DNA of 64,000 nt from Minisyncoccota bacterium (GTDB taxonomy: Bacteria > Patescibacteriota > Minisyncoccia > Phycocordibacterales > Zambryskibacteraceae). Below the pieces are notes generated by a model. The model did not search any database. It was given only the letters and a program-made list of their open reading frames with translations, and was not told the origin of the DNA. A program made the position numbers and the translations under genes. This document shows positions 13,927 to 52,708 of this stretch, piece by piece (position 1 is the first letter of the stretch; each line of letters opens with the position of its first letter). The stretch lies in the NCBI GenBank assembly GCA_036517475.1, contig DATDVZ010000010.1:15338-79337 (forward strand), given 5' to 3'.

Positions 13927-14466
13927 TTATTTGGCACCTAAGAAATTTATTATCTTTAATGCACATTTTTGTGGAGATAGGTGCGTATTGTTAATAATAA
14001 TTGGCGGATAAGATTTTAATCCTTGAAAAATTTTCGCTTTCAATTTTTCTTTAAACTTTTTGATTGTATTAGTTTTTGTTTTTTCTTTTCTTGAAGGCAT
14101 TAGAATTCTATTTTTATGCTCCTGCCAATCACACTCTATCCTGAAGAAAAAAATTTCGGCGTTCATTTTTTTTGCTAATTGTACAGATTTTTTCGCAATC
14201 TGCGTTGTTGGATGAAGTCTTATACTCAAAGTACAAATAATACCCCCTACTCCTGACTTAAGAAGCATTTTGAGTATTGCTAGATGCATTTTTCCATTTA
14301 GTAGGTGTGCATTTGGGGTTCCTTGGGGTATGAAATGACAGATCTCTCTGTAAGTAAGATGGTTATCCAACAATGCATATCCAGTCAACTTGCTGATAGC
14401 AAGACCGATCGTAGTTTTACCCACTCCAGGCAAACCAATCAAATAAATTACTCTTTTTCTTCTCAT
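13927..14466 (-). CDS. P-loop NMP/shikimate-kinase-like protein
   Basis: Walker A LIGLPGVGKTTIGLAISKLTGYALLDNHL (shikimate/gluconate kinase-like N-term). ATG at 14466. Confidence 0.5.
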   Translation of the reverse strand: MRRKRVIYLIGLPGVGKTTIGLAISKLTGYALLDNHLTYREICHFIPQGTPNAHLLNGKMHLAILKMLLKSGVGGIICTLSIRLHPTTQIAKKSVQLAKKMNAEIFFFRIECDWQEHKNRILMPSRKEKTKTNTIKKFKEKLKAKIFQGLKSYPPIIINNTHLSPQKCALKIINFLGAK

Positions 14467-14543
14467 TTTATTGCTTAATGCCAATATTTACTCAGGCAAT
14501 CCCAACCAAAGGATAATCAATTATATTTTAACCCTAATTATAT

Positions 14544-14614
14544 TCGGGCTGCCGGGAATTGAACCCGGGCCTTACCCACCCCATGGGCAAATACTACCGT
14601 TATACTACAGCCCG
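14544..14614 (-). tRNA. tRNA-Pro (GGG), no encoded CCA
   Basis: C1:G70 first pair, discriminator A, loop ATGGGGT, T-arm CCGGG-TTCAATT-CCCGG. Confidence 0.75.
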
Positions 14615-14617
14615 TTA

Positions 14618-15130
14618 TTATTCAAAAAAACCCTTCTCTTTGTACTCCTTTACCAATGCATCCGCAGTTTCTTTTTCAAGGTCTATGGGAATCTGGCTTG
14701 CCCACTCTTCAGCCTCTTCCAATTTATCATTTATCAAAAGATATAGAAGTTTTGTGATGGTATTTGGGTGATTCTCAGACTGGTACTCGAGTGCTTTTGC
14801 AGCATGAAACTGTGCTTTTTCTTTATCTTTATATCTCCATGTCGCACAGCTAATTGCATGATGATGCCAAAACCAGAGAATTTCTTGCCAATATTCTTTT
14901 TCTTCTTCCGTAAGAGTTGCTGAATCAACAGCTTCTAAAATTTCTTTTACTTTATTTACTACTAGATTAGGATTGTTATAATCCCAGGAACCATCCTTCA
15001 TGAGTTTCTGATCTTCTTCGCTGTATCTATGCGACAACCCAAGAGGTGTTTTTGCCGCCAGCAGAACATAAGCTGCCCTTAGTGGGCTTCTCTCTATTTC
15101 AAATACTTCATTACCGGTGGAACCTTCCAT
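14618..15130 (-). CDS. hypothetical protein (170 aa) wedged between two tRNA-Pro genes
   Basis: ATG 2 nt after the tRNA-Pro(UGG) 3' end; stop 3 nt before the tRNA-Pro(GGG) 5' end. Confidence 0.4.
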   Translation of the reverse strand: MEGSTGNEVFEIERSPLRAAYVLLAAKTPLGLSHRYSEEDQKLMKDGSWDYNNPNLVVNKVKEILEAVDSATLTEEEKEYWQEILWFWHHHAISCATWRYKDKEKAQFHAAKALEYQSENHPNTITKLLYLLINDKLEEAEEWASQIPIDLEKETADALVKEYKEKGFFE

Positions 15131-15132
15131 TG

Positions 15133-15203
15133 TCGGGGCGCCGAGAATCGAACTCGGCCCTCATGCTCCCAAAGCATGCATACTACCGATATACTACGCC
15201 CCG
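15133..15203 (-). tRNA. tRNA-Pro (UGG), no encoded CCA
   Basis: C1:G pair, anticodon stem CATGC/GCATG, loop TTTGGGA, T-arm CCGAG-TTCGATT-CTCGG. Confidence 0.8.
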
Positions 15204-15252
15204 AATTTCGGATTAATTTACACTGGTCGGCACCTCACTGGTATTCATTCGT

Positions 15253-15323
15253 TCGGGGTGCCGGGAATTGAACCCGATTCTCACGAACCCGAATCGTGTA
15301 TACTACCGGTGTACTACACCCCG
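15253..15323 (-). tRNA. tRNA-Pro (CGG), no encoded CCA
   Basis: C1:G pair, anticodon stem CACGA/TCGTG, loop TTCGGGT. Confidence 0.75.
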
Positions 15324-15370
15324 AAAATAACTTTCAAATCCTATCATAGAGACAGAAGAGCAGCGAATTT

Positions 15371-15754
15371 TTACAAAACAATATTTTCCATGTACTTCAC
15401 CTTAACTTTTTTATTCCCCTCATCAATCACCACTACCGCTACATCAAATTGCCAGTCAACCTCTAAATCTTTTTCAAGTAAATAAGTCTGAATTGTTCTT
15501 GATAACCTTTTCATTTTCCAGGGGTGAATGTTATCCTCCGGATTCCAAGAATCTAATGTTTCACGTGAAAACTCAGAAAAACTGACTGTTTTTACCTCAA
15601 CAAAATGAATTTTCCCGTCAATTTCTGCAATTATGTCAATTTCGCCCCATTTTCTTAGATAATTTCTTTCAATAATATTAGATTTTCTACTCTCAAGAAA
15701 TTTACAGGTAATTTCCTCACCAATATCACCAAATCTTCTTCTCTCGCTTTTCAT
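15371..15754 (-). CDS. YraN-family (UPF0102) endonuclease
   Basis: 127 aa; GDIGEEITCKFLESRKSNIIERNY...GEIDIIAEIDGKIHFVEVKT. Confidence 0.7.
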   Translation of the reverse strand: MKSERRRFGDIGEEITCKFLESRKSNIIERNYLRKWGEIDIIAEIDGKIHFVEVKTVSFSEFSRETLDSWNPEDNIHPWKMKRLSRTIQTYLLEKDLEVDWQFDVAVVVIDEGNKKVKVKYMENIVL

Positions 15755-15970
15755 AATTTAATTGATTTCACGTGAAACTAAAATATTAGTTACTAAGTAA
15801 CTTATTCAAAAATGTTACTTAGAAACACAATTAACTGATCTGTAATTAAATTCCTAATTAAAGGACGTCCTTTATACACATATCCACAGTTTTATCCCCA
15901 ATTCTTTGTCCTTTATATTTTAAATACAACCATACATATTTAAAGAATTGGGATTAAAATAAAGGACATT

Positions 15971-16041
15971 TGCGGGATGGGAGAATCGAACTCCCGACCA
16001 CAGTTTGGAAAACTGTTGTTTTGCCACTAAACTAATCCCGC
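15971..16041 (-). tRNA. tRNA-Gly (UCC), no encoded CCA
   Basis: GCGGGAT acceptor, anticodon stem ACAGT/ACTGT, loop TTTCCAA. Confidence 0.8.
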
Positions 16042-16043
16042 AT

Positions 16044-16115
16044 CGCACCCGTCAGGAATCGAACCCGAAATACGAAGTCCGAAGCTTCGCGTGATATCCG
16101 TTTCACTACGGGTGC
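16044..16115 (-). tRNA. tRNA-Arg (UCG), no encoded CCA
   Basis: GCACCCG acceptor, anticodon stem CGAAG/CTTCG, loop CTTCGGA. 2 nt from tRNA-Gly. Confidence 0.8.
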
Positions 16116-36118: not shown

Positions 36119-36883
36119 ATGAAAATAACTATTTTTACTGATGGTGCGGCCAGAGGAAATCCAGGTCCCGGCGGATGGGGAGCAATCGTTATTTTTCCAG
36201 TAAGAAAGACACCGATTGCGAATAACAATCGAATAACGAATAAGGAATGGGTGCAAGAACTCGGCGGATCGGAAAAACACACGACCAATAATCGAATGGA
36301 GCTCACTGCAGTTATAAAGGCGCTTGAATTTATATCTAAAAAAATCGTTATTCCTAATTCCTCATTCATAATTCTTCTTTGCACCGATTCCTCCTACGTC
36401 ATGCGTGGTGCAAAGACCTGGGTTCATGATTGGGCTAAAAACAAGTGGAAAACAAAGCAAAAAAAGGATGTTTTGAATAAAGATTTATGGAAAAAATTTT
36501 TAAAAGTCAGTAAAGACTTTAATATTGGATGGAAATTATTGCCTGGACACTCTGGAATTCCCGCAAATGACCGCTGTGACCAAATTGCAACTGCATTTGC
36601 AGATAACAAGAAGCCAAAACTATATTCTGGAATTCTGCAGAATTATGGAATAGATATTCAAGGTCGAATCTTAAGAATCCCTAAAGGTTCGACCTTAATT
36701 TCAAAGAAGAAAAGAAGTTCCTCAAAACCATATTCATACGTCAGTTTAGTCGGTGGAATTGTGCAAACTCACGTCACCTGGGCAGAGTGCGAGAGACGTG
36801 TAAAAGGTGTAAGTAATGCTAAATTTAAAAAATCAATTTCTTTTGAGGACGAGCAATTAATAATTAATAGGTTCAGAGTTTAA
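36119..36883 (+). CDS. rnhA: ribonuclease HI with C-terminal RNA-DNA hybrid-binding (HBD/Cauli_VI-like) domain
   Basis: TIFTDGAARGNPGPGGWG, NNRMELTAV, CTDSSYV, HSGIPANDRCDQ catalytic core, plus C-term YSYVSLVGGIVQTHVTWAECERRVKGVSNAKFKKSISFEDEQ. Confidence 0.75.
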   Translation: MKITIFTDGAARGNPGPGGWGAIVIFPVRKTPIANNNRITNKEWVQELGGSEKHTTNNRMELTAVIKALEFISKKIVIPNSSFIILLCTDSSYVMRGAKTWVHDWAKNKWKTKQKKDVLNKDLWKKFLKVSKDFNIGWKLLPGHSGIPANDRCDQIATAFADNKKPKLYSGILQNYGIDIQGRILRIPKGSTLISKKKRSSSKPYSYVSLVGGIVQTHVTWAECERRVKGVSNAKFKKSISFEDEQLIINRFRV

Positions 36884-36946: not shown

Positions 36947-38422
36947 ATGCTAAATGATTTGTTAAAAGATTTGCTTATTGTCTCTGGATTAGCCTTTCTT
37001 CTAGGAATAGCAACCTCTTCTTTTATTAACTTGGGTTTAGTGTTTGCCTTATTCATTTTATTTTTGGGAGTAATAATCACTGCCTATACATTGATCTTTG
37101 TTGAATCTGAAAGCAGAAATATTTTTAAGATAGTCGCTCTAGCACTAATATTTTTCTCACTAGGGCTAGCCAGATATGATTTAAAAGAGAGATACAACCC
37201 AGATCCAAAATTAATTTCAGCTATAAACTCTAAAACTGAAATTATTGGTGTAGTTGTAGAAGAGCCAAAATATAAAAATACATATCGTGAATACATAATT
37301 AAAACAGAGGCTGGAGATAAAATTTTAGTTAGAGCGGAAGTATATCCAGAATATAGATACGGCGATAGGATCAAATTCAGAGGCAAACTTGAAAAGCCTA
37401 AAAATTTTGAAGATGAGCGAGGAAAAACCTTTGATTATAGCTCTTTCCTAGCTAAAGAAGATATTTACTTTATTCTCTCATTTGCTAAAGGAGAGTTTAT
37501 TGAGAATGACCAGGGTTCTAAGTTAAAATCCACTCTTCTTACTTTTAAAAGTCAGTTGAAGGAAAGTTATGAAGCAAGAGTGGGTGAACCCGCTTCATCT
37601 TTACTTGGTGGAATTCTTCTTGGTTTTGACGAAATTGGCAAAGAATGGGAGGAAATTTTTCGTCAGATCGGAATAATTCATATTATAGTGCTCTCAGGTT
37701 ACAACATTACTATTATTGCAGATTCAATCTATTGGCTCTTATCCCGTATTAAGTACTTATCAAAAAAATGGATACTTTCCACAGAGTTAATCGGAATAAT
37801 TTTATTTGTAATTATGGTAGGAGGGACTCCTTCAATTATACGCGCCGCCCTAATGGCGCTTCTGGTTCTGCTCGCTCGCTATACAGGCAGAACTTTTCTA
37901 GCTGGCAGGGCGCTTCTGGCGGCTGCTTCCTTTATGGTTTTGTGGAACCCTAAAGTTTTAGTTTTTGATACGGGATTCCAGCTTTCATTTCTTGCTACAG
38001 CCGGATTAATCTGGGTGACACCTCTCTTAAAAAACAAACTAAACTGGATCACTGAAAAATTTGCCTTGCGCAATATTGTTACTGATACAATCTCAACGCA
38101 AATTCTGGTTTTACCACTTCTTCTTTATAAAACTGGATTATTTTCAGTAGTATCCATTCCGGCAAATATTCTTGTTCTTCCAGCAGTTCCCTTTGCCATG
38201 TTTTTTGGATTTTTAACAGGTATAATGGGCCTAATATCTTCAATCGCTGCGGTTCCTTTTGCATTTATTTCACAAATTTTGCTTGACTACATATTGAAAA
38301 TCTCAGAGTTGTCCGCCTCTTTGCCTTTATCTTCAGTTTCAGTGGCAGAGTTTCCGTTGATTTTTACACTTTTTATTTATTTAGCTTACTGCTTATTTTA
38401 TTTAAAAATACGGACAAAATGA
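36947..38422 (+). CDS. comEC: ComEC/Rec2-family competence channel protein (no beta-lactamase domain)
   Basis: 491 aa polytopic; GIIHIIVLSGYNITII competence motif. Confidence 0.7.
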   Translation: MLNDLLKDLLIVSGLAFLLGIATSSFINLGLVFALFILFLGVIITAYTLIFVESESRNIFKIVALALIFFSLGLARYDLKERYNPDPKLISAINSKTEIIGVVVEEPKYKNTYREYIIKTEAGDKILVRAEVYPEYRYGDRIKFRGKLEKPKNFEDERGKTFDYSSFLAKEDIYFILSFAKGEFIENDQGSKLKSTLLTFKSQLKESYEARVGEPASSLLGGILLGFDEIGKEWEEIFRQIGIIHIIVLSGYNITIIADSIYWLLSRIKYLSKKWILSTELIGIILFVIMVGGTPSIIRAALMALLVLLARYTGRTFLAGRALLAAASFMVLWNPKVLVFDTGFQLSFLATAGLIWVTPLLKNKLNWITEKFALRNIVTDTISTQILVLPLLLYKTGLFSVVSIPANILVLPAVPFAMFFGFLTGIMGLISSIAAVPFAFISQILLDYILKISELSASLPLSSVSVAEFPLIFTLFIYLAYCLFYLKIRTK

Positions 38423-39213
38423 TCTTCCATAAGAAAAAGTCATTAGGCCAAAATTTCCTTATAAATAAAGGGATTCTGGAGATAATTGCCAAAGAAGCAG
38501 AAATAAAAAAGGGGGAGATTGTAGTTGAAGTGGGCCCAGGTAGTGGGTATCTAACTCAAAGTCTTCTTGAGGCAGGAGCAGTAGTATTTGCGATAGAAAA
38601 AGATAACCGCCTGATACAAATTTTAAATGAAAAATTTACCAAAAAAATAAAAAATAAAAGATTAATTTTGATTAATGATGATATTCTAAAATTTAATTTT
38701 GCAAAATTAGTCAGAAGTAAAAAGTATAAAATTGTTGCAAATATTCCTTATTATATAACTGGTGCCTTGTTCAAAAAAATCTTTTCTCAAAAAAATCTAC
38801 CGAGTCTGGTTGTTCTTACGCTCCAGAAAGAGGTTGCAAAAAGAATAATTGTAATGGATGGTAAAGAAAGCATTTTATCAATTTCAGTTAAAGCATATGG
38901 CAAGCCAAAAATTGTAAAAATTGTCTCACGGGGAAGTTTTTCACCTGTGCCGAGTGTTGATTCTGCGATATTAAAAATTACCGATATCTCAAAAAACTTT
39001 TTTAAGGAATTTCCAGAGGAGAAATTTTTTAGTATTTTACATGCTGGATTTTCTTCAAAAAGAAAATTTTTAATTAGTAATCTTCAAAAAATTGAAAGTA
39101 AAGAGAAATTAGAAAAAATCTTTAACAGACTAAATATAAACAAAAAAATCCGCGCAGAAGATCTGGATTTAAATGAATGGAAAAAATTAACCACCATGCT
39201 TCATGATCTATGA
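38419..39213 (+). CDS. rsmA: 16S rRNA A1518/A1519 dimethyltransferase
   Basis: KSLGQNFLINKGIL, VVEVGPGSGYLT SAM motif. Confidence 0.9.
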   Translation: MIFHKKKSLGQNFLINKGILEIIAKEAEIKKGEIVVEVGPGSGYLTQSLLEAGAVVFAIEKDNRLIQILNEKFTKKIKNKRLILINDDILKFNFAKLVRSKKYKIVANIPYYITGALFKKIFSQKNLPSLVVLTLQKEVAKRIIVMDGKESILSISVKAYGKPKIVKIVSRGSFSPVPSVDSAILKITDISKNFFKEFPEEKFFSILHAGFSSKRKFLISNLQKIESKEKLEKIFNRLNINKKIRAEDLDLNEWKKLTTMLHDL

Positions 39214-39251
39214 TCTATGTTCTATGTTCTATGTTCTATGTTCTATGGTAA
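39196..39251. repeat. heptamer tandem array (atgcttc atgatct x2 atgttct x4 atggtaa) between convergent rsmA and the 39243 gene
   Basis: 8 units; overlaps the TGA of rsmA and the TAG of the minus-strand gene. Confidence 0.85.
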
Positions 39252-39662
39252 CGCTCCCGGCGCGCTTGTGCCCACTCTGGCAATTTGGCCAAATGAAGGA
39301 AGCGGGACACAAAAAGGAGGAAAACCAATCCAACATGATTGTACTGCCGGTACATAGTCACCCAGATGTGCTGTGGTTGGAATTCCAATAAAAAAATTGG
39401 CAAATAGAGTACTGATGCCAAGATTAAATGTCAGGGCTCCCGCAAAAGGAAAGGGTACCGGGGCGGGGTAAAGTGGGGCCATAAATATCCATAATCCAGG
39501 GGGTGGACAGGTACATGGAATAAAAAACTGAACAAACCCCCCAAAAGGGATACCTGTCGCAATATTTGATCCAGCCTGCCCAAAAGCCGAAAATGGAATC
39601 ACAAATATAAATATGATCAAAAATATTATTATTTTTTTTCTTGTAGATTGTTCCTTGTTCAT
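39243..39662 (-). CDS. hypothetical hydrophobic Pro/Phe-rich protein
   Basis: 139 aa, signal-like N-term. Confidence 0.3.
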   Translation of the reverse strand: MNKEQSTRKKIIIFLIIFIFVIPFSAFGQAGSNIATGIPFGGFVQFFIPCTCPPPGLWIFMAPLYPAPVPFPFAGALTFNLGISTLFANFFIGIPTTAHLGDYVPAVQSCWIGFPPFCVPLPSFGQIARVGTSAPGALP

Positions 39663-39672
39663 TGCTCCTTGT

Positions 39673-40701
39673 CTAATTAATTCTTAGTATAACCTTTTGG
39701 GGGTTAAGCGTCACACCGTGGGAGTTTTTTACAAAGAAATACAAATCAATTGACTGGCCCTGAAGATATTTAAATGCTTTTGCAAAATCACTTGCCTTTG
39801 GAAAATCCGAGAGATGAATTTTTATTTCACCCCCATTTGATACAACCCCTCCTAGATTTCCCAGAGACGACCAAACTTCATTTGAAGATTCAAAGTTGTC
39901 CCCTCTTAAAATTATTACATCCCCCAAACTTGAAACAGAGATAACTGAAGTTGAATTAAATGTCGGCGGATTCGTGGGATCTGGGGTCACTGTAAAAAAT
40001 TTCTCTTTAATCTGGTTTCTGCTGTTTCCTCTTTCATTCTCAATCCAGATATTATATTTACCAAGTTCGACGCTTGAAGGAACAATGAATTTCAAATTTT
40101 TACCCTCGCTGCTTTCCAAATTCTCCACAATTTTTTTATCGTCAAAATAAATTGAATTATTTTTTGTAAAATACCAACCTGTTATCTCAACAGTATCTCC
40201 CGGAGCTGCTTCAATTTTTGAAAAATTCAAAACCTGCGGTGGCTGTAAAAATAATTTATTAGTCAGAGGTTGTAAATCTGAATTCTGAAACTTTTGGTTT
40301 TGGTTTTCTGGTAACTGTGTGTTTGTTGTTTGTTGTTTGTTGTTAGTTGTTAGTTCATTTAGCTTTTTTCTCGTTAGTGGCCCCACATAACCAGTGCCTA
40401 CAAAACTTGTGTCATTTCCCACAATTTCTTCCCTGTAAAGATTTTGAAAACGTATCACAGCATCAAGTGTAAGTTTGCCGAAATATGTCGTTTCATTACC
40501 AAATGAGCCGTAGCCATTGTTAGAAACGATAGTCTTTGAATAACTGTTTAATATTTTCTGTAATTGCTTAACGTCTTCGACGTTATCTCCAATTCTTAAA
40601 TTACGGCTAAAAATAAAGTTCTGTTGGGCTTTGGAATCAGGAATCACGAATGAAGAATAAAGAATAAAAATTAAAGTAACCAGTAAAAATCTTCTAAGCA
40701 T
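39673..40701 (-). CDS. secreted protein with N-terminal peptidoglycan-binding-like domain and IPT/TIG-like repeats
   Basis: 342 aa; LRIGDNVEDVKQLQKILNS...GKLTLDAVIRFQ. Contains the TTNNKQQTTNTQ low-complexity stretch. Confidence 0.45.
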   Translation of the reverse strand: MLRRFLLVTLIFILYSSFVIPDSKAQQNFIFSRNLRIGDNVEDVKQLQKILNSYSKTIVSNNGYGSFGNETTYFGKLTLDAVIRFQNLYREEIVGNDTSFVGTGYVGPLTRKKLNELTTNNKQQTTNTQLPENQNQKFQNSDLQPLTNKLFLQPPQVLNFSKIEAAPGDTVEITGWYFTKNNSIYFDDKKIVENLESSEGKNLKFIVPSSVELGKYNIWIENERGNSRNQIKEKFFTVTPDPTNPPTFNSTSVISVSSLGDVIILRGDNFESSNEVWSSLGNLGGVVSNGGEIKIHLSDFPKASDFAKAFKYLQGQSIDLYFFVKNSHGVTLNPQKVILRIN

Positions 40702-45585: not shown

Positions 45586-46335
45586 ATGACTTTCACACAA
45601 CAACAAAAAAAAACTGCCTACATTTCGCTTAACCCAAGTGTTCAGTATTTTATAACTGACCCGGAAAGCAGAGAAATTTCAGAGAAAATTTCAAAACAAT
45701 ACTCACTTGATTTTGATCAGACAGATAATCTTGATGAGGAGATAGACAATACAATTTTAGGCCTCCAAAGTTTTAGAGAAATGATTATTAATCTTAGACA
45801 AAAACTTGGATTATCGGACGATAAAATAATTGAACTTGCTCGTGATCTTAAACAACAAATCTTTGACAAGTTGGATGAAATTAAAAAAGGAGAAATACAA
45901 TATCAAATTCCGGAAACTTTTATTTCGACACCCACACAGTTGAAAGCGAAAATTAACCCACCAACAACCTACAACTCACAACCAACAACTTATAAAGAAC
46001 CCAATCAAACAAATACTAAGCAAAATGCTTTGGAAAGGATGGATGGAGTTTTTAATAAGACAGCGCCGGCGCCGGGGAATTTACCGAGTCAACCAACAAC
46101 CGACAACAAACAACAAACAACAAACTTTCAAATTCCGAAAACTAAAGTAGTGGAGGAATATCATCAGGAATTAAAACCACCAACAACTAACAACCAACAA
46201 CTTACAACAAATAATAGACAACCTAATCAACCTATACAAAAATCACCCATGGAGAGGAAATTGGAGCAAAATCCAAATGTTATGAAAAGTTCATATGGTA
46301 ATAAACCAGATCCTTATCGCGAGTCACCACAATGA
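45586..46335 (+). CDS. Gln/Asn/Thr-rich low-complexity protein
   Basis: 249 aa; contains QLTTNNRQPNQP. Confidence 0.35.
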   Translation: MTFTQQQKKTAYISLNPSVQYFITDPESREISEKISKQYSLDFDQTDNLDEEIDNTILGLQSFREMIINLRQKLGLSDDKIIELARDLKQQIFDKLDEIKKGEIQYQIPETFISTPTQLKAKINPPTTYNSQPTTYKEPNQTNTKQNALERMDGVFNKTAPAPGNLPSQPTTDNKQQTTNFQIPKTKVVEEYHQELKPPTTNNQQLTTNNRQPNQPIQKSPMERKLEQNPNVMKSSYGNKPDPYRESPQ

Positions 46336-46745
46336 TATTCAAATTTCCGCAATATATTGATGTTGAAGACAAAATTTTCGGGCCGCTTACTATAAAGCAG
46401 TTCATTTATCTTCTAGGTGGGGCTGGAATTATCGTCACCATTTTCAGATTCTTGCCGGGTTTTATAGCCTTTTTTCTTGCTATACCAATAATTGCCCTGT
46501 CGCTTTCGCTTGCGTTTTGGAGAGTCAATAATCAACCTTTTATAAGTGTATTGGAATCCTTTATGAAATATGTCTTTGGGGAAAAGCTCTATATATGGAA
46601 AAAAGAAGCAAAAAAAATATCAAAAAAAGAACAAGAATCTATTAATCCACAGGTTTATATTCCAAAAGTTACTGATGGAAACCTTAAAAACTTGAAATGG
46701 AACATTGACGTTAAAAAATCACAGGACATAGAACCTGAGACATAG
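46332..46745 (+). CDS. small 2-TM protein, VirB3-like
   Basis: 137 aa; GPLTIKQFIYLLGGAGIIVTIFRFLPGFIAFFLAIPIIAL. Confidence 0.35.
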   Translation: MIFKFPQYIDVEDKIFGPLTIKQFIYLLGGAGIIVTIFRFLPGFIAFFLAIPIIALSLSLAFWRVNNQPFISVLESFMKYVFGEKLYIWKKEAKKISKKEQESINPQVYIPKVTDGNLKNLKWNIDVKKSQDIEPET

Positions 46746-46824
46746 AACATGGAACATGGGGCATGAGGCATGGAACATAAAACATGGAGCGTAAAACATT
46801 AAACATATAACAAGGAATATGGAA
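46727..46824. repeat. heptamer array, 14 units (catagaa cctgaga catagaa catggaa catgggg catgagg catggaa cataaaa catggag cgtaaaa cattaaa catataa caaggaa tATGgaa)
   Basis: begins inside the last codons of the 46332 gene (TAG in catagaa) and ends with the ATG of the 46819 gene. Confidence 0.85.
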
Positions 46825-47169
46825 AAAAGTTACAATGAGAGGTTGAAAAAATTAATAAATCAGTATGTCCATAAAGTTTATGATTACAGCGTTAACTTTC
46901 CAAAGAATGAAGTATTTGGACTAACTTCTCAACTCAAACGCTCTGCAATGTCTGTCGCATTGAACTATGTCGAGGGATACGCCAGAAGAAGAAAGCTTGT
47001 TTTTAAAAATTTTATTGAAATTTCCTACGGCTCATTGAAAGAAAGTGTTTATTTAGTTGAATTCTCGTATAATAGAAAGTACCTGAATATAAACCAATAT
47101 AAGGAACTAAACAATTTAGCAGAAGAAGTAGCTAAAATGCTTTGGGGAATTATGGATAAGTTAGACTAA
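46819..47169 (+). CDS. four-helix-bundle protein (23S rRNA intervening-sequence protein family)
   Basis: 116 aa; FPKNEVFGLTSQLKRSAMSVALNYVEGYARR...ISYGSLKES. Confidence 0.6.
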   Translation: MEKSYNERLKKLINQYVHKVYDYSVNFPKNEVFGLTSQLKRSAMSVALNYVEGYARRRKLVFKNFIEISYGSLKESVYLVEFSYNRKYLNINQYKELNNLAEEVAKMLWGIMDKLD

Positions 47170-47203
47170 TGGTCTATGTTCTATGATAAATGATCTATGA
47201 CTT
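47169..47203. repeat. heptamer array, 5 units (atggtct atgttct atgataa atgatct ATGactt)
   Basis: the last unit is the start codon of the 47197 gene. Confidence 0.8.
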
Positions 47204-47832
47204 TAAACGCAAAAGCAACACAAGAGTTTGTTCCAATTGAAGAGGTGCGTGACGGCATTATTGTCATGAAAGACAGCGGAATGCGCGCTGTTCTTCTGTG
47301 TTCTTCTCTGAATTTTTCACTCAAATCAGATGATGAGCGAACAGCAACCCTTCTGCAATTTCAGGACTTTTTGAATTCTCTGGATTTTTCGATTCAAATT
47401 TATATTGAGTCCCGCCGGCTTGATATCAGGCCGTATCTTGCGCTGTTGGAGAACCAGAAAAAGAATCAGACAAACAGTCTGATGAAAATACAGATTCAGG
47501 AATATATTGAATTTGTTAAAAGTTTCACTGAACAAACAAATATAATGAAAAAAAGTTTTTATGTTGTCGTGCCGTTTTCTCCAGCGATAATAAGACAAAA
47601 AGGAAACATTCTTTCAAACATATTGCCGTCACAGAAACAAACAAGCGAGAAAGAGTCCGCAAACTTTGAGGAGAGTCGTACCCAAATTGAACAGCGTCTC
47701 TCGGTTGTTGAACAAGGACTCATGCGCTGCGGTATAAGAGTTGCCAGACTCGGTACAGAAGCAATAGTTGAATTGTTCTATAAAATATTTAATCCGGGGG
47801 AAAGCGAAAAACCGATTCAGTTGAAGACATAG
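47197..47832 (+). CDS. VirB4/TraC N-terminal-domain-like protein (N-terminal fragment of a split VirB4)
   Basis: 211 aa; FVPIEEVRDGIIVMKDSGMRAVLLCSSLNFSLKSDDE...RLGTEAIVELFYKIFNP. Confidence 0.5.
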   Translation: MTLNAKATQEFVPIEEVRDGIIVMKDSGMRAVLLCSSLNFSLKSDDERTATLLQFQDFLNSLDFSIQIYIESRRLDIRPYLALLENQKKNQTNSLMKIQIQEYIEFVKSFTEQTNIMKKSFYVVVPFSPAIIRQKGNILSNILPSQKQTSEKESANFEESRTQIEQRLSVVEQGLMRCGIRVARLGTEAIVELFYKIFNPGESEKPIQLKT

Positions 47833-47947
47833 AACATTAAACATGAAACATAGAATATTAGACATAGAACATAAAACACTTGAATTGAAAGTCCGAATTC
47901 AAAGCATGTTTCATGCTTCATGTTCCATGACTAATGATAAATGACCA
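47828..47947. repeat. inverted heptamer array: 8 units in catagaa phase, central gaattgaaagtccgaattc, then 6 units in atgttct phase ending in the ATG at 47941
   Basis: imperfect palindrome about 120 bp. The TAG stop of the upstream gene is inside the first unit. Confidence 0.85.
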
Positions 47948-49770
47948 CAATGGGAATATTTGATTTTTTAAAAAAGAAAAAAAGTGAAAATTCATTAGCG
48001 AGTATATCTATTCTGCCCCATGAAATTTATGAGGCAAATACTCTTGATTTAAAGGATATTATCGCTCCCAGCGCCCTTAAGGTCGGGCCAAAGGATATTA
48101 ACCTCGGCGAAAAGATAATGCGCTCTTTCTTTGTTATTTCCTATCCTTCTTCTTTGGGAGAAAGCTGGTTTGCGCCGATAATAAATTTGGACAGAGTTTT
48201 TGATGTTGCTATATTCGTCCACCCTATTGAAACTTCAAAAATTCTCAAGAAATTTCAAAAAAAAGTCGCAGAAGTCCAGAGTCAGATCCATGAAAGAGAA
48301 GAGAAGGGGCTTGTGCGCGATCCCATGCTTGATATTGCCTACCAAGACCTGGAAAATCTGCGGGATCAGCTGCAGCAAGCGCAAGAAAAACTATTTGACG
48401 TAGGATTATATATTTCAATTTACGCTGATAACGAAAATGAGCTGGATAAAATTGAATCTGAAATTAAGTCCATTCTTGAGTCCAAACTTGTCTATATCAA
48501 GCCGGCTCTTTTCCAGCAACAAGAAGCATTTAAAAGCATCCTGCCTATGGGAGATGATATTATTGCGGTAAATTCAAAACTTAACTCCTCCCCGCTTTCA
48601 TCACTTTTCCCTTTTATATCATTTGATCTTTCTACCGAGGAGGGAATTCTTTATGGCATTAACAGACATAACTCATCTCTTGTACTTTTTGACCGTTTTT
48701 CGCTTGAAAATTACAACTCAATAATTTTTGCAAAATCCGGTGCCGGCAAAAGCTATGCCACCAAGCTTGAAATCCTAAGGACACTAATGTTTGATACGGA
48801 AGTCATAGTAATTGACCCGGAAAGAGAATATGAATTCATGGCTGACGCCATCGGCGGAAGATATTTTAAAATTTCTCTGACCTCCGAACACCACATCAAC
48901 CCTTTTGATCTTCCGCCACCCGGACCGGATGAATCATTCGCCAATATTTTGCGCTCCAATATTATTAATCTTGTCGGACTCTTCCGCCTGATGATGGGGG
49001 GTCTCAGCGCCGAGGAAGATGCAATAATTGACAGGGCAATTACTGAAACTTACGCTCTCAAAGACATAACACCAGATTCGGATTTTACAAATATTGAACC
49101 TCCGCTTCTTACTGACTTTGAGCTAGTTCTATCTGGAATGGAGGGCGGAGCATCTTTGGCCCAGCGTCTTACAAAATACACAAAGGGTACGTGGGCCGGG
49201 TTTATAAACCGGCCGACAAATGTGGATATAAACAAGAAATTTGTTGTTTTTTCTTTGCGTGACATGGAAGACGAACTCAAGCCCATTGCAATGTATATCG
49301 TCACTCATTACATCTGGAGTGCTGTTAGAAAAGAACTTAAAAAAAGGCTTTTGGTTATTGACGAAGCTTGGTGGATGATGAAATCGGAAGATACCGCCTC
49401 ATTTGTGCTCAATATTGCAAAAAGGGGTAGAAAATATTTCTTAGGTCTTGCCACAATAACGCAGGATGTGGACGATTTCCTTGCCTCTCCCTACGGCACT
49501 CCTATCATTACCAATTCCTCAATTCAACTGCTCTTGAAACAGTCTCCGACAGCCATTGACCGCCTTCAGGGGGTTTTTAATCTGACTGATGAAGAAAAAT
49601 ATCTTTTACTTGAATCAAATGTTGGGGAAGGAATATTTTTTGCCGGGCTAAAGCACGTGGCGATAAAAATCGTTGCCTCTTATACCGAAGATCAGATTAT
49701 AACTTCCGATCCTGCCCAGATATTGGCAATACAAAAAGCAAAACAAGAACTCGAATCTGCTTCCGCGTAA
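47941..49770 (+). CDS. VirB4/TrbE/CagE-family T4SS ATPase (C-terminal ATPase part)
   Basis: 609 aa; Walker A SGAGKSYATK, Walker B LLVIDEAWWMM, RGRKYFLGLATITQ. Confidence 0.7.
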   Translation: MTTMGIFDFLKKKKSENSLASISILPHEIYEANTLDLKDIIAPSALKVGPKDINLGEKIMRSFFVISYPSSLGESWFAPIINLDRVFDVAIFVHPIETSKILKKFQKKVAEVQSQIHEREEKGLVRDPMLDIAYQDLENLRDQLQQAQEKLFDVGLYISIYADNENELDKIESEIKSILESKLVYIKPALFQQQEAFKSILPMGDDIIAVNSKLNSSPLSSLFPFISFDLSTEEGILYGINRHNSSLVLFDRFSLENYNSIIFAKSGAGKSYATKLEILRTLMFDTEVIVIDPEREYEFMADAIGGRYFKISLTSEHHINPFDLPPPGPDESFANILRSNIINLVGLFRLMMGGLSAEEDAIIDRAITETYALKDITPDSDFTNIEPPLLTDFELVLSGMEGGASLAQRLTKYTKGTWAGFINRPTNVDINKKFVVFSLRDMEDELKPIAMYIVTHYIWSAVRKELKKRLLVIDEAWWMMKSEDTASFVLNIAKRGRKYFLGLATITQDVDDFLASPYGTPIITNSSIQLLLKQSPTAIDRLQGVFNLTDEEKYLLLESNVGEGIFFAGLKHVAIKIVASYTEDQIITSDPAQILAIQKAKQELESASA

Positions 49771-49807: not shown

Positions 49808-50536
49808 ATGAACCTTGATTCAGATATAAATGAAAATATAGGGAGAGGCCACTCTGCTCTCATCAGAAGTCCGGAAATTGACAGGCAGAGGGCAGAACAG
49901 AAAAAGCGCGCCGGACAAGTTCTTCAGAGTGCCGGTAAAGTCCTATCAAAAACGGGGGAAGGAGCAATAGTGGGAGTTCCAATGCAAGTTGCAGGAACAA
50001 TTTTAAGAAATAGAAACAATAAACAAAGAACGGGGGACGAGGAACAAGAAACAATTGGAACAACAGTGCCAAGTATTACAAGTGAATTTTCAAAGGATTC
50101 TAAAATTGTAAACGAATCGGCACAAAGATCGGAAAAAAGAAATAGAGTGACATTAACAACTACATATCTAATGTTTGGAACGGCTCTCTTTTTTGATTCC
50201 CTGCAATTTGTATTCAGTTTTGTGCCATTTCTTGGCTGGATATTGTCGGGCATCGTTGGTATTTTTGCCTGGTTAACTTTCTATACATGGACCTCAATAA
50301 AGGGCTGGGGCTGGTCAGATACTGTCAAAAAGATTGCAATTAATTGGGCATTGCCTTTGGTAGAAGTTTTTCCCATTATTAACGGCCTGCCACTGTGGAC
50401 ATTGCGAGTAGCAATACAAATTGCAATTATTAAAGCAGAAGATGTCCTATACAACAGTACTCAAGGAAAGGTGGATGTAAAAAATATACTCAATTTCAAA
50501 AGCAAGTATGGGGCAATCTTGAAACCTAGAACATAG
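49808..50536 (+). CDS. membrane protein (3-4 TM in the C-terminal half)
   Basis: 242 aa; stop TAG inside catagaa. Confidence 0.35.
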   Translation: MNLDSDINENIGRGHSALIRSPEIDRQRAEQKKRAGQVLQSAGKVLSKTGEGAIVGVPMQVAGTILRNRNNKQRTGDEEQETIGTTVPSITSEFSKDSKIVNESAQRSEKRNRVTLTTTYLMFGTALFFDSLQFVFSFVPFLGWILSGIVGIFAWLTFYTWTSIKGWGWSDTVKKIAINWALPLVEVFPIINGLPLWTLRVAIQIAIIKAEDVLYNSTQGKVDVKNILNFKSKYGAILKPRT

Positions 50537-50574
50537 AACATGCTTCATGCTCTATGTTTTATGTTCCATGATCA
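50525..50574. repeat. inverted heptamer array (cctagaa catagaa | atgcttc atgctct atgtttt atgttcc atgatca)
   Basis: seen directly. Confidence 0.8.
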
Positions 50575-50592
50575 ACAGGTTATAATTAAAAT

Positions 50593-51582
50593 ATGAGAAA
50601 AATTTTACTTCTTCTGACTGCATTTTTTTTAGTTAATGTCGGGATTATCTTTGCACAGATCAATATCAGCGACATTATCCCCAGTTTCAGTATAAAAATT
50701 TTTCCGGAAATCCCTGTTTCCGGAGACAAAATCAATATTTCAGTTGACAGTTTCTCGGGAATCAATATTGATTCTGCCTCCATTCGTTGGAGTATTAACA
50801 GCAAAATAGTTAAAGAGGGTGTTGGAGAAAAAAATTTCTCCTTTCAGGTAGGAGAATCAGGAAGTGAGACGGAGATCAGAGTGGATATCAACCCTCAAAA
50901 AGGACTGCCTTTTTCAAAAACAATTATTATTCGCCCTTCCGAAATTGATCTAGTATGGGAGGCAGATACATCAGTCCCCCTCCTTTACAGTGGAAAATCG
51001 CTTTTTTCCAGAGAAAGTCTCCTTAGATTTGAAGCTATTCCACATTTTGTTAGAAGAGATAAGACAGAAATCCCAAAAGAATCTTTAATTTATGAATGGA
51101 GAGCAAATAACAAGCTTTACCCAAATTCTTCAGGATATGGAAAAAACTTCTTTTCAATTTCCGGATCGCAATTTGAACAGGTTGAAACAATTGAGGTCAC
51201 GGCTCGTTCAACAGATGGGGGGTTTATTGCAAAGAAATTCGTAACAGTTGAACCTGTTTCTCCGGAAGTTTTAATTTATGAGAACAATCCGCTTCAGGGA
51301 ATACTTTATAATAGAGATGTCGGCTCACAATACAAGCTTTCAAATCAGGAAATCACCTTTAGAGCCGCCCCTTATTATTTTTCCACAAAGGATATCTTCT
51401 CATTTACATTTGACTGGCTTATAAACGGAGCAAAAGTAAGTGCTCCAGAAAAAGACGAGATGACATTAAGAGTGGAAGATGACTCTGCCGGATCATCACG
51501 AATATCAATTCAGGTCAAAAATCCAAAAAAAATTTTCCAGAATTCTAAAAAGGAATTCCTAATAAATTATGGCAATAACTAA
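50593..51582 (+). CDS. secreted beta-rich protein
   Basis: 329 aa, signal peptide. Confidence 0.35.
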   Translation: MRKILLLLTAFFLVNVGIIFAQINISDIIPSFSIKIFPEIPVSGDKINISVDSFSGINIDSASIRWSINSKIVKEGVGEKNFSFQVGESGSETEIRVDINPQKGLPFSKTIIIRPSEIDLVWEADTSVPLLYSGKSLFSRESLLRFEAIPHFVRRDKTEIPKESLIYEWRANNKLYPNSSGYGKNFFSISGSQFEQVETIEVTARSTDGGFIAKKFVTVEPVSPEVLIYENNPLQGILYNRDVGSQYKLSNQEITFRAAPYYFSTKDIFSFTFDWLINGAKVSAPEKDEMTLRVEDDSAGSSRISIQVKNPKKIFQNSKKEFLINYGNN

Positions 51583-52708
51583 CTCACAACTTACAACCAA
51601 CAACCGACAACCAAAATTGCTTTTGATTTTATTTTTATTTCTCTTCCTTTTTCCTTTTTCCTTTGTCAGCGCTGAAATACCACAGTCTGCCAGAGGTAAG
51701 CAATGTTTTGTTTTTGGATATGGCGGAGCAGCAAGTCTTTTCCCCTGTGAAAATCCACCAGCACAAGTGGTCGGCAGAGACTGTGTTGTTTGTGGTAACC
51801 CATCAAATGGTCAGTGTCCAACGCCAATTTCTACAACAAACGGAGGTGGGACAACATTCATATGCGAAGTAGGAACTGCTACTCCACCACCAAACAATCC
51901 TCCACCAACAAGTCTAGGATATATTCCATTGGCCCCACTTCCAGGTGATACACCAGGTCAACCTATAAAAGTTACTGACTATATTCCGAAGGTTTTTAGA
52001 CTTGCCATTGCTGTAGCAGGAGCACTGGCAGTAATTATGATTACAATCGGCGGAATTGAATACATTACTTCCGAAACTATTAACGGCAAAAAGGACGGCA
52101 AAGAAAAAATAACAAACGCTCTGGTTGGACTTCTTTTGGCAATCGGTTCCTGGATTATTTTAAATACGATTGCTCCCGACAGATTCACCCAATTTGATTT
52201 GAGTACGATAAGAACACCGCCACAAATTACAACCGCAACAACCACACCACCATCGCCTGGAAGCTGGCCGAGTGATCAGGGCGTCAGACAAAGGCTTGGG
52301 CTTAGCGGAATATCCATTAATAATAGTAACTGCACTTATATTGGACAGGTCGGATGCACTAGCGTCTATGGATTGAGAGAGAATATTATAAGTGGTCTTG
52401 AGCAGTTAGTGCGGGATTGTTTCGGCCAGTGCAATATCGTAATAACCGGCGGCACTGAATGGTGGCTGCACGGTAACAGAATTGATATCAATTCTACCCA
52501 GCATCGACCAGGTGGAAATGCTGTTGATTTGTCAAAAAATGATTCAGTATTAAATAACTTCATCATGCGTTTCCCGAAGATAGGTTCAGCAACTGGCGGA
52601 AACGGCTGCGCTACAGGCCAAGGATACAATGTTGGCGGAAAAATTTATGTTGATGAGATAAGTTCAGGGGCAAGCACCGGTCCTCATTGGCATATATGTT
52701 TTCCATAA
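51569..52708 (+). CDS. fusion: VirB2/TrbC-like two-helix membrane hairpin plus C-terminal peptidase M15-like (VanY/L-Ala-D-Glu peptidase-type) domain
   Basis: 379 aa; Cys-rich secreted N-region, FRLAIAVAGALAVIMITIGGIEYITS...ALVGLLLAIGSWIILNTI, then STQHRPGGNAVD (SxHxxGxAxD) and GPHWH. Confidence 0.45.
   Translation: MAITNSQLTTNNRQPKLLLILFLFLFLFPFSFVSAEIPQSARGKQCFVFGYGGAASLFPCENPPAQVVGRDCVVCGNPSNGQCPTPISTTNGGGTTFICEVGTATPPPNNPPPTSLGYIPLAPLPGDTPGQPIKVTDYIPKVFRLAIAVAGALAVIMITIGGIEYITSETINGKKDGKEKITNALVGLLLAIGSWIILNTIAPDRFTQFDLSTIRTPPQITTATTTPPSPGSWPSDQGVRQRLGLSGISINNSNCTYIGQVGCTSVYGLRENIISGLEQLVRDCFGQCNIVITGGTEWWLHGNRIDINSTQHRPGGNAVDLSKNDSVLNNFIMRFPKIGSATGGNGCATGQGYNVGGKIYVDEISSGASTGPHWHICFP

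What the first reader, a model, noticed from the sequence alone, without database searches (positions are those of the whole stretch)
47197..49770. VirB4 homolog split into N-domain ORF and ATPase ORF by a 108-bp palindromic heptamer-repeat spacer
ORF 47197-47832 (211 aa) looks like the VirB4/TraC N-terminal domain. ORF 47941-49770 (609 aa) carries the middle and ATPase domains. Together they are about 820 aa, which is normal VirB4 length. The split falls at the natural domain junction. The spacer 47828-47947 consists entirely of inverted arrays of the ATGTTCY/RGAACAT heptamer, supplying the TAG stop of the first ORF and the ATG of the second. This is either a functional two-subunit VirB4, a gene recently interrupted by repeat expansion (pseudogenization), or a phase-variable ON/OFF junction.
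Basis: partly seen in the sequence, partly recalled or inferred. Interest (0 to 1): 0.7.

Follow-up and report, generated by a model that had tools for sequence, protein, structure and literature searches.

The report
Heptamer-repeat hairpin between trsD and virB4
The "split VirB4" is the normal, ancient two-gene arrangement (TrsD plus VirB4) of the type IV secretion system in Patescibacteria; the only unusual feature is a 117-base hairpin of inverted 7-base repeats, without a gene, inserted exactly at the gene boundary, of the same kind as the repeats that flank a small "23S rRNA intervening-sequence protein" gene next door.

Summary
Both ORFs and the repeats are real. ORF1 (47197-47832) is a TrsD/TraC-like protein that matches the first ~180 residues of VirB4. 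ORF2 is an intact VirB4 ATPase.

The repeats did not cause the split. More than 7,800 homologues of ORF1 are stand-alone proteins of about 212 aa. In 78 other species the two genes are always separate, usually 1-6 nt apart or overlapping. TrsD next to VirB4 is already published for Patescibacteria.

The spacer is a secondary insertion at the gene boundary. The conserved VirB4 start is ATG 47950, so the spacer is 117 nt (47833-47949). It has inverted RGAACAT/ATGYTYY arrays around a 26-nt core. The same arrays flank the neighbouring four-helix-bundle (23S_rRNA_IVP) gene at 46819-47169.

In other species the same junction is:
- empty in 59;
- occupied by gene-less palindromes of genome-specific heptamers in 6;
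- occupied by such arrays around an IVP or GxxExxY gene in 8.

Pseudogenisation is refuted. Phase variation has no support: the spacer is identical in 10 assemblies.

The side result is more interesting than the finding. IVP genes in Patescibacteria, cyanobacteria and other phyla are typically flanked by inverted heptamer arrays. I found no paper describing this.

The parts
46332..46745 (+). PrgI/VirB3-like gene. Its last ~17 nt already run into the left heptamer array.
   Evidence: Pfam PrgI, E=5.6e-10; sequence.
46729..46812 (+). Left (purine-rich, NNAACAT-type) heptamer array of the IVP cassette, about 12 imperfect units.
   Evidence: It pairs with 47166-47203 in the predicted fold.
46819..47169 (+). 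Cargo gene: 116-aa four-helix-bundle protein (23S_rRNA_IVP / TIGR02436 family, related to Avd).
   Evidence: Pfam PF05635, E=1.8e-26; TIGR02436, 93 bits against a cut-off of 24.
47166..47203 (+). Right (ATGNNNN-type) heptamer array of the IVP cassette. Its last unit contains the TrsD start codon.
   Evidence: (repeats D3, I1).
47197..47832 (+). trsD-like gene (ORF1, 211 aa): a stand-alone homologue of the first ~180 residues of VirB4.
   Evidence: Precomputed PF26593 TraC-like; NCBIfam conju_CD1110 positions 2-166 and VirB4_plasma positions 102-233; predicted fold matches TrwK/VirB4 in the top 14 PDB hits; fused homologue.
47825..47878 (+). Left arm of the gene-less element: about 7.5 RGAACAT-type units, starting in the last two codons of trsD.
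   Evidence: (repeats D1, I3, I5).
47879..47904 (.). Non-repeat core with a small hairpin (TTGAATT/AATTCAA).
   Evidence: No significant similarity to IVP cassette interiors.
47905..47947 (+). Right arm of the gene-less element: 6 ATGNNNN-type units, ending 2 nt before the conserved VirB4 start.
47950..49770 (+). virB4 ATPase gene (606 aa from the conserved start; the longest ORF starts at 47941).
   Evidence: NCBIfam conju_CD1110, 373.5 bits against a cut-off of 325; PDB 4AG5, E=3.8e-40; Pfam P-loop_TraG and AAA_10; start position from homologues.
50525..50575 (+). Mini palindrome of the same heptamers (2 TAGAACA units and 4-5 ATGYTYY units) between ORF 49808-50536 and ORF 50593-51582.
39196..39251 (+). 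Unpaired array of 8 ATGWTCT units between convergent genes. Both stop codons lie inside the array.

Best explanation
The window comes from a Candidatus Paceibacterota (Patescibacteria) genome. It carries the monoderm-type type IV secretion operon prgI(virB3)-trsD-virB4.

TrsD (ORF1) and VirB4 (ORF2) are two anciently separate genes. Together they equal a full-length VirB4. In most relatives they are translationally coupled, with stop and start 1-6 nt apart or overlapping.

In this lineage a 117-nt gene-less palindrome has been inserted exactly between the trsD stop and the virB4 start. It consists of imperfect inverted heptamer arrays (RGAACAT ... ATGYTYY). It belongs to the same element family as the cassette 450 nt upstream, where identical arrays in the same orientation flank a promoterless four-helix-bundle 'IVS protein' gene.

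Shown here:
- homology and collinearity of the two genes;
- the age of the split;
- presence or absence of the insert at orthologous junctions;
- shared arrays between the spacer and the neighbouring cassette;
- both genes are intact.

Inferred, not shown:
- The element is a selfish or near-neutral insertion of the intervening-sequence (IVS) type that rides on a highly transcribed operon.
- In the transcript the arms can form an imperfect stem. That stem could be cut by RNase III, as rRNA IVS stems are, or could keep the trsD stop and virB4 start close together. VirB4 would still be made from its own conserved ATG.
For: Homology of the two genes to VirB4:
- ORF2 is a VirB4.
- ORF1 is TraC-like/TrsD with a VirB4 N-terminal fold.
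- fused homologues are collinear with ORF1 plus ORF2.

Age of the split:
- about 7,900 homologues; the top 120 are all 207-232 aa.
- 2,297 cluster representatives, mostly 200-250 aa.
- in 78 species loci the genes are always separate. The spacer is 15 nt or less in 59, 24-53 nt in 5, 85-122 nt in 6, and 421-523 nt in 8.
- PMC12102498 describes TrsD as the most abundant T4SS component in Patescibacteria, usually next to VirB4.
- a Geobacillus plasmid has prgI, a TrsD-like gene and a DUF87 ATPase in the same order.

The spacer as an insertion:
- the long spacers are inverted heptamer arrays, with genome-specific heptamers, around an IVP or GxxExxY gene. The ~100-nt spacers are the same arrays without a gene.
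- the closest relatives differ. L098, L011, L113, L114 and L115 have empty junctions. L097 has an orthologous gene-less element with the same heptamers. L099 has one with different heptamers.
- the same arrays flank the IVP gene at 46819-47169.
- the spacer is identical in 10 assemblies.
- no promoter-like or terminator-like site in the spacer.

Link between heptamer arrays and IVP genes:
- period-7 arrays number 84, against 13, 0 and 5 for periods 6, 8 and 9, in 790 kb.
- 18 of 30 IVP genes have period-7 arrays in their flanks, against 0-2 for other periods.
Against: - The predicted RNA hairpin of the spacer is not better than shuffled sequence (MFE -22.7 kcal/mol, z = -1.1).
- Across 33 elements the arms pair no better on the transcribed strand than on the opposite strand (20 against 13, p = 0.62). 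So there is no G-U signature of selection at the RNA level.
- The loop of the gene-less element shows no similarity to IVP cassette interiors. Whether it is a cassette that lost its cargo, an empty target, or an independent element is open.
- No target-site duplication was found.
- Expression, RNA processing and mobility were not observed. Only consensus assemblies were compared, not reads.
Confidence: 0.85

Rival explanations
1. Recent pseudogenisation: a single virB4 gene was broken in this lineage by expansion or insertion of the heptamer repeats.
For: The two ORFs are collinear with fused VirB4 proteins, and the spacer is absent from most relatives.
Against: - Relatives without the spacer still have two genes, each with its own stop and start.
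- Thousands of stand-alone homologues of about 212 aa exist.
- TrsD is a named, essential T4SS component.
- ORF1 ends and ORF2 starts at the same codons as in genomes without an insert.
- ORF2 is full length with intact motifs.
Confidence: 0.02
2. Phase-variable switch: slippage in heptamer copy number turns VirB4 production on and off.
For: Tandem 7-nt units are not a multiple of 3. In this genome the units carry TAG on one arm and ATG on the other.
Against: - The units are imperfect copies, which are poor substrates for slippage.
- The arrays lie outside both conserved reading frames.
- The sequence is identical in 10 assemblies from several samples, and in two assemblies of a sister species.
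- Sister elements use heptamers without ATG or TAG.
Confidence: 0.03
3. Selected regulatory RNA element. The stem is an RNase III processing site or a structure-dependent coupling device that sets the TrsD:VirB4 ratio, rather than a neutral or selfish insert. This can coexist with the best explanation.
For: - The stem base brings the trsD stop and the virB4 start together.
- IVS stems of the same cassette type in 23S rRNA are cut by RNase III (PMC4990558).
- The junction is occupied in 14 of 78 species by independent elements.
- An orthologous element is kept in L097 despite a diverged loop.
Against: - Fold z-score of -1.1.
- No strand bias in arm pairing.
- No Rfam family matches.
- 59 of 78 species do without any spacer.
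Confidence: 0.25
4. The gene-less palindrome is the empty landing site, and IVP or GxxExxY genes insert into the loops of such hairpins, as IVSs sit at the tips of rRNA helices. It would not be the remnant of a cassette that lost its gene.
For: - Cargo genes fill the space between the arrays exactly. Distances between the arms fall into two classes, about 10-90 nt and about 355-410 nt.
- Loops show no remnant of a cargo gene.
- Two different cargo families occupy the same architecture.
Against: No orthologous pair with the same heptamers, one with and one without cargo, was found. The direction of change is untested.
Confidence: 0.3

Closest known systems
TrsD + TrsE/VirB4 of monoderm (MPF_FATA, pGO1-type) conjugation systems and the Patescibacteria T4SS (PMC12102498)
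   Same: A stand-alone protein homologous to the N-terminal part of VirB4, encoded directly upstream of the VirB4 ATPase and downstream of PrgI/VirB3.
   Different: Here a 117-nt repeat palindrome separates the two genes, which abut or overlap in most relatives. I did not compare ORF1 directly with pGO1 TrsD.
23S rRNA intervening sequences (IVS) with an S23p/IVP ORF (Leptospira, Coxiella), and ORF-less IVS (Salmonella) (PMC4990558)
   Same: - A small promoterless ORF of the same protein family, flanked by inverted repeats that form a stem.
- Versions of about 100 nt without an ORF exist.
- They sit in very highly transcribed units.
   Different: - These elements lie at junctions of protein-coding genes, not in an rRNA helix.
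- The stems are built of imperfect tandem heptamers.
- RNase III excision is untested here.
- The finding's spacer has no ORF.
Cyanobacterial short tandem heptamer repeats (STRR type) and Beggiatoaceae TAACTGA repeats (PMC4679880; bioRxiv 10.1101/2022.06.06.494920)
   Same: Tandem 7-nt units, genome-specific, intergenic, ending at or overlapping start codons. Their function is unresolved.
   Different: Those papers describe direct repeats and propose regulation of the downstream gene. Neither mentions IVP genes or inverted pairing. Here the arrays come as inverted pairs around a cargo gene or a short loop.
MITEs and REP/BIME-type palindromic elements
   Same: Short non-coding palindromes found in several copies per genome at gene ends (four sites in this window).
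   Different: - No target-site duplication was found.
- The arms are tandem heptamers, not unique terminal inverted repeats.
- No transposase partner is known.
- The heptamers differ between genomes.
Phase-variable simple sequence repeats
   Same: Tandem short units whose length is not a multiple of 3.
   Different: The units are imperfect and outside the reading frames, and no length variation was seen.

Membership tests
VirB4 / TrsE-type T4SS ATPase (ORF2) | Matches a curated VirB4-family model above its cut-off. | tested here: met
   NCBIfam conju_CD1110: 373.5 bits against a cut-off of 325, covering positions 182-733 of 752.
VirB4 / TrsE-type T4SS ATPase (ORF2) | C-terminal P-loop ATPase domain with Walker A and Walker B motifs. 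| tested here: met
   PDB 4AG5 VirB4 C-terminal domain: E=3.8e-40 over residues 234-588. GAGKSY and VIDEAWW are visible in the alignment.
VirB4 / TrsE-type T4SS ATPase (ORF2) | Encoded in a T4SS gene cluster. | tested here: met
   PrgI lies upstream and a T4SS_pilin-domain protein downstream.
TrsD / TraC-like (PF26593) stand-alone VirB4 N-terminal homologue (ORF1) | Sequence or profile similarity to the N-terminal ~180 residues of VirB4-family proteins. | tested here: met
   - Precomputed PF26593.
- conju_CD1110 positions 2-166, E=1.9e-5; VirB4_plasma positions 102-233, E=2.6e-11.
- Fused homologue: 37% identity over 214 aa.
- The local Pfam copy gave no hit.
TrsD / TraC-like (PF26593) stand-alone VirB4 N-terminal homologue (ORF1) | Fold of the VirB4 N-terminal region. 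| tested here: met
   AlphaFold model with mean pLDDT 68.9. The top 14 Foldseek PDB hits are all TrwK/VirB4: probability 1.0 for 13 of them (0.97 for one), query TM-score 0.44-0.56. Model confidence is only moderate.
TrsD / TraC-like (PF26593) stand-alone VirB4 N-terminal homologue (ORF1) | A separate gene immediately upstream of virB4. | tested here: met
   78 of 78 species loci; a Geobacillus plasmid; the literature.
23S rRNA intervening sequence (IVS) element | Inserted in a helix of the 23S rRNA gene. | tested here: not met
   The element lies between protein-coding genes. There is no rRNA in the window.
23S rRNA intervening sequence (IVS) element | Flanked by inverted repeats able to form a stem. 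| tested here: met
   Arms of 27 nt, 85% complementary (repeat I3). The cassette arrays pair in the minimum-energy fold. For the spacer alone the fold energy is not better than shuffles.
23S rRNA intervening sequence (IVS) element | Carries an ORF of the S23p/IVP family (in the ORF-bearing type). | tested here: not met
   The spacer 47833-47949 has no ORF. The sister cassette at 46729-47203 does carry one.
23S rRNA intervening sequence (IVS) element | Excised from the transcript by RNase III. | not testable with these tools
   No transcript data. Known for rRNA IVSs only.
Phase-variable simple sequence repeat | Copy number differs between cells or strains. | tested here: not met
   Identical in 10 assemblies. 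Reads were not examined.
Phase-variable simple sequence repeat | The repeat lies in a reading frame or in promoter spacing, so that unit number changes expression. | tested here: not met
   The arrays lie between the conserved stop and the conserved start. No promoter-like site in the spacer.
MITE | Terminal inverted repeats plus a target-site duplication. | tested here: inconclusive
   Inverted arms are present. No direct duplication is seen when filled and empty junctions are compared.
Intrinsic terminator | GC-rich hairpin followed by a run of T. | tested here: not met
   No terminator-like site within 47833-47949.
Cyanobacterial or Beggiatoa-type intergenic heptamer repeats | Tandem 7-nt units, intergenic, next to start codons, genome-specific. 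| tested here: met
   for Patescibacteria. Searches show the same kind of arrays around cyanobacterial IVP genes.

The most novel reading that the evidence does not exclude
The spacer is the gene-less form of a so far undescribed, phylum-spanning class of cassette.

Architecture and distribution:
- Imperfect tandem 7-mers in inverted orientation flank a small promoterless cargo gene. The arm upstream of the cargo is purine-rich and the arm downstream is pyrimidine-rich.
- The cargo is a four-helix-bundle IVP/Avd-like protein or a GxxExxY PD-(D/E)XK protein.
- The cassettes settle at gene junctions of highly expressed operons (the T4SS operon here, CRISPR-cas operons in cyanobacteria) as well as in rRNA helices.

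Three features suggest a dedicated mechanism:
- The heptamer is genome-specific and changes in concert on both arms and at several loci. The window has AGAACAT/ATGTTCT; the sister genome L111 has AGAACGT/ACGTTCT.
- The cargo fills the loop exactly.
- 9 of 25 left boundaries carry a perfect 8-16 bp inverted copy of the host gene's 3' end, against 10 of 522 control junctions. None of 30 right boundaries do. This points to a hairpin or fold-back step during insertion.

If true, this would also explain the long-puzzling cyanobacterial heptamer repeats and the origin of rRNA intervening sequences.
Probability: 0.35. Interest if true: 0.75.

Novelty: new variant of a known kind. Interest (0 to 1): 0.4.

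Why it matters
For the finding as stated, little changes. The two-gene VirB4 (TrsD + VirB4) is the standard, published architecture of the Patescibacteria secretion system. It should not be annotated as a pseudogene or a phase switch.

The useful result is the nature of the spacer. It ties three things together:
- 23S rRNA 'intervening sequence' cassettes;
- their scattered four-helix-bundle genes;
- intergenic heptamer repeats.

All three fit one element architecture, seen here in Patescibacteria, cyanobacteria, an alphaproteobacterium and, with 8-nt units, a Gemmatimonadota plasmid.

If confirmed, this gives a testable origin for rRNA IVSs and for cyanobacterial heptamer repeats. It would also explain why such small genes turn up inside cas and secretion operons.

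Tried and rejected
- Local Pfam scan and PDB sequence search of ORF1 gave nothing. Homology came from precomputed PF26593, NCBIfam, a fused homologue and fold search.
- Rfam has no family in 46600-48100. At gathering scores the whole window shows only six tRNAs.
- The RNA fold of the spacer is not significant (z = -1.1).
- The test for RNA-level selection, comparing arm duplex energy on the coding and opposite strands, showed no bias (p = 0.62).
- The idea that the loop is a remnant of a deleted IVP gene found no significant similarity.
- There is no promoter-like or terminator-like site in the spacer.
- PADLOC found no defence-system match for the IVP protein.
- An apparent difference in spacer length between two contigs that carry the same TrsD (93 against 135 nt) was a gene-calling artefact. 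The DNA is identical.
- The idea that the arrays exist to supply stop and start codons in all frames was rejected. Other genomes use heptamers without TAG or ATG.
- Seven literature searches found no paper that links IVP genes with heptamer arrays. The library is incomplete, so this does not prove novelty.
- I did not use the metagenome or viral collection scans, or the remaining protein searches.
Full report
**1. The observation**

The two ORFs are present as described: 47197-47832 (211 aa) and 47941-49770 (609 aa), both on the + strand. Between them lie tandem 7-nt units in inverted orientation.
- Units of the type NNAACAT/CATAGAA occupy 47825-47878.
- Units of the type ATGNNNN occupy 47905-47947.
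- A 26-nt core without repeats (47879-47904) lies between them and has its own small hairpin.

This is far beyond chance. The pattern ATG-N4 repeated four times occurs 19 times in the window and never in 100 shuffles.

**2. Are the two ORFs a split VirB4?**

Yes, in the sense of homology.
- ORF2 passes the curated NCBIfam model for CD1110-type VirB4 ATPases: 373.5 bits against a cut-off of 325, covering profile positions 182-733 of 752.
- ORF1 matches positions 2-166 of the same profile, and positions 102-233 of the mycoplasma VirB4 model.
- ORF2 residues 234-588 match the crystal structure of a VirB4 C-terminal domain (4AG5, E=3.8e-40). Residues 259-555 match TrwK residues 446-735.
- A predicted structure of ORF1 (mean pLDDT 68.9) finds TrwK/VirB4 as its top 14 PDB matches.
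- In a fused 797-aa homologue, residues 1-214 align with ORF1 residues 1-205, and residues 230-796 align with ORF2 residues 37-602. A Myxococcus plasmid encodes a fused 858-aa protein.

Nothing is missing at the junction.

The split point is not the boundary between the N-terminal domain and the ATPase domain. ORF2 residues 1-233 still belong to the N-terminal region.

**3. The split is old, and it is already known**
- The protein search with ORF1 returned about 7,900 homologues. The best 120 are all 207-232 aa long.
- In the search of cluster representatives, 2,297 clusters matched. Most are 200-250 aa, and one of the best 150 is a fused 797-aa protein.
- I fetched the locus from 80 other species and measured the junction in 78. 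Every one has two genes.
- The distance from stop to start is 15 nt or less, often 1-6 nt or an overlap, in 59 species. It is 24-53 nt in 5, 85-122 nt in 6 and 421-523 nt in 8.
- A Geobacillus plasmid has the same order: prgI, then a TrsD-like gene, then a DUF87 ATPase, with the last two overlapping.
- A 2025 paper on the Patescibacteria type IV secretion system names this protein TrsD. [quoted passage not shown] Southlakia epibionticum (PMC12102498).

The repeats therefore did not split the gene.

**4. What the spacer is**

Alignment with relatives that lack an insert shows two things (gene calls).
- trsD stops at the same codon as in those relatives (...ACA TAA in L098, ...ACA TAG here).
- virB4 starts at the conserved ATGGGAATATTTGAT. 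That is position 47950, not 47941.

The insert is thus 117 nt, placed exactly between a native stop and a native start.

The same heptamers in the same orientation flank the gene immediately upstream of trsD.
- That gene (46819-47169) encodes a 116-aa four-helix-bundle protein of the 23S_rRNA_IVP / TIGR02436 family.
- About 12 NNAACAT units lie on its left (46729-46812) and 5 ATGNNNN units on its right (47166-47203).
- Two further sites in the window carry the same units: a mini palindrome at 50525-50575, and an unpaired array at 39196-39251.

In other species the trsD/virB4 junction holds the same architecture with other heptamers.
- Gene-less palindromes of 85-122 nt occur in six loci: L018, L034, L047, L064, L078 and L082.
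- Arrays around a cargo gene, spanning 421-523 nt, occur in eight loci.
- The cargo is an IVP gene in L020, L042, L054, L069, L076, L085 and L086, and a GxxExxY PD-(D/E)XK protein in L033.

The nearest relatives differ among themselves.
- L097 (85% TrsD identity) has an orthologous gene-less element with the same heptamers but a different loop.
- L099 (76%) has one with different heptamers.
- L098, L011, L113, L114 and L115 are empty.

This is the pattern of a secondary insertion at a hotspot.

**5. How general the architecture is**
- In 790 kb of Patescibacteria sequence, period-7 arrays number 84, against 13, 0 and 5 for periods 6, 8 and 9.
- Inverted array pairs fall into two classes by the distance between the arms: about 10-90 nt, and about 355-410 nt, which is the size of an IVP gene.
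- Of 30 IVP genes, 18 have a period-7 array within 90 nt. For other periods the count is 0-2.
- I also examined all 14 IVP genes that I sampled from annotated plasmids: cyanobacteria, Azospirillum and Gemmatirosa.
  - Most have a purine-rich tandem array upstream of the gene and its pyrimidine-rich inverted copy downstream. In one (Pseudanabaena, L094) the two arrays are direct rather than inverted, and in two (L092, L095) an array was clear on only one side or not clear in the flanks shown.
  - The units are 7 nt, except 8 nt in Gemmatirosa.
  - Several of these genes sit between cas genes.
- Heptamers are genome-specific and concerted. Within-genome array pairs share a heptamer in 33% of cases, against 8.7% between genomes. 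The sister genome L111 has AGAACGT/ACGTTCT where the window has AGAACAT/ATGTTCT, on both arms and at both junctions.

**6. Mechanism**

Shown:
- There are two intact genes.
- The insert lies outside both reading frames.
- It contains no promoter-like or terminator-like site.
- It is identical in ten assemblies.

Inferred: the element belongs to the intervening-sequence kind. IVSs in 23S rRNA carry the same protein family between inverted repeats, exist in forms without an ORF, and are cut out by RNase III (PMC4990558). Like rRNA operons, the Patescibacteria T4SS operon is reported to be very highly expressed. A promoterless cassette would benefit from that.

The arms could form a stem that is cleaved. 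Alternatively, the stem could keep the trsD stop and the virB4 start close together and so preserve coupled translation.

The evidence for a role at the RNA level is weak. The fold z-score is -1.1, there is no strand bias in arm pairing, and no Rfam family matches. I therefore rate 'near-neutral selfish insert' above 'selected regulator'.

**7. Rejected readings**

Pseudogenisation is contradicted by sections 2-4.

Phase variation is contradicted by four observations:
- The units are imperfect.
- They lie outside the reading frames.
- The assemblies are identical.
- Sister elements have heptamers that contain neither ATG nor TAG.

**8. Side observation**

At the left boundary of IVP cassettes, 9 of 25 junctions carry a perfect 8-16 bp palindrome made of the last bases of the host gene and their inverted copy. 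In controls this occurs at 10 of 522 junctions (Fisher p = 1.3e-8). It occurs at none of 30 right boundaries. Orthologous junctions without an insert lack it. This asymmetric inverted duplication of the flank looks like an insertion footprint. The window's own spacer does not have it.

**9. Verdict**

The split VirB4 is ordinary and already known. The spacer is a gene-less member of a family of cassettes flanked by heptamer arrays. That family's link to IVP genes I could not find described in the library. Interest in the finding as stated is low to moderate. The side result deserves a proper census.

Noticed in passing
window 46729-47203: A 116-aa four-helix-bundle '23S rRNA intervening-sequence protein' gene sits between prgI and trsD. 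It is flanked by about 12 NNAACAT units on the left and 5 ATGNNNN units on the right. The arrays overlap the prgI stop and the trsD start. Orthologous cassettes occur in L097, L099 and L111 but not in L098.
   Followed up: yes
L020 5639, L038 3209, L050 3991, L054 5612, L071 4093, L076 5627, L085 5642, L086 5645, L099 1726: There is a perfect 8-16 bp inverted copy of the upstream host gene's 3' end, centred on its stop codon, at the left boundary of IVP cassettes. It occurs at 9 of 25 such boundaries against 10 of 522 control junctions, and never at the right boundary. It may be an insertion footprint.
   Followed up: partly
L091-L096 and L101-L108 (plasmids of Nostoc, Trichormus, Aulosira, Anabaena, Picosynechococcus, Pseudanabaena, Stanieria, Geminocystis, Leptolyngbya, Azospirillum, Gemmatirosa): Four-helix-bundle ('S23 ribosomal protein') genes are flanked by tandem 7-mers (8-mers in Gemmatirosa), purine-rich upstream and the inverted pyrimidine-rich array downstream. 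Several lie between cas genes (cas10/cmr3, cas6/cas4). In Pseudanabaena the flanking arrays are direct rather than inverted: 15 and 10 copies of CTAAAAG/CCAAAAG.
   Followed up: partly
L033 5621-6145: At the same trsD/virB4 junction, one species carries a GxxExxY PD-(D/E)XK protein (TIGR04256, PF13366) between the heptamer arrays instead of an IVP gene.
   Followed up: partly
window 39196-39251: Eight ATGWTCT units lie between the convergent rRNA adenine dimethylase gene (38419-39213, +) and ORF 39243-39662 (-). Both stop codons lie inside the array.
   Followed up: partly
window 46089-46209, 40315-40359, 51581-51614: ACAACNN-type heptamer arrays are read in frame inside ORFs. They give near-identical low-complexity peptides (QPTTDNKQQTTN, PPTTNNQQLTTNN, LTTNNKQQTTNTQ) in otherwise unrelated proteins: ORF 45586-46335, ORF 39673-40701 on the minus strand, and the start of ORF 51569-52708.
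   Followed up: no
window 36227-36251 and 36345-36374: An inverted pair of CGAATAA-type arrays lies in frame inside the RNase H domain of ORF 36119-36883. The 136 matched profile positions are spread over 158 residues. The same heptamer family flanks IVP cassettes in the related genome L099. This may be chance.
   Followed up: no
L111 2540-3010 and 3630-3760, compared with window 46729-47203 and 47825-47949: Orthologous elements in a sister genome use AGAACGT/ACGTTCT where the window uses AGAACAT/ATGTTCT. The change appears on both arms and at both junctions, which is concerted, compensatory change of the repeat unit.
   Followed up: partly
window 13809-16115: A cluster of six tRNA genes lies on the minus strand.
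   Followed up: no
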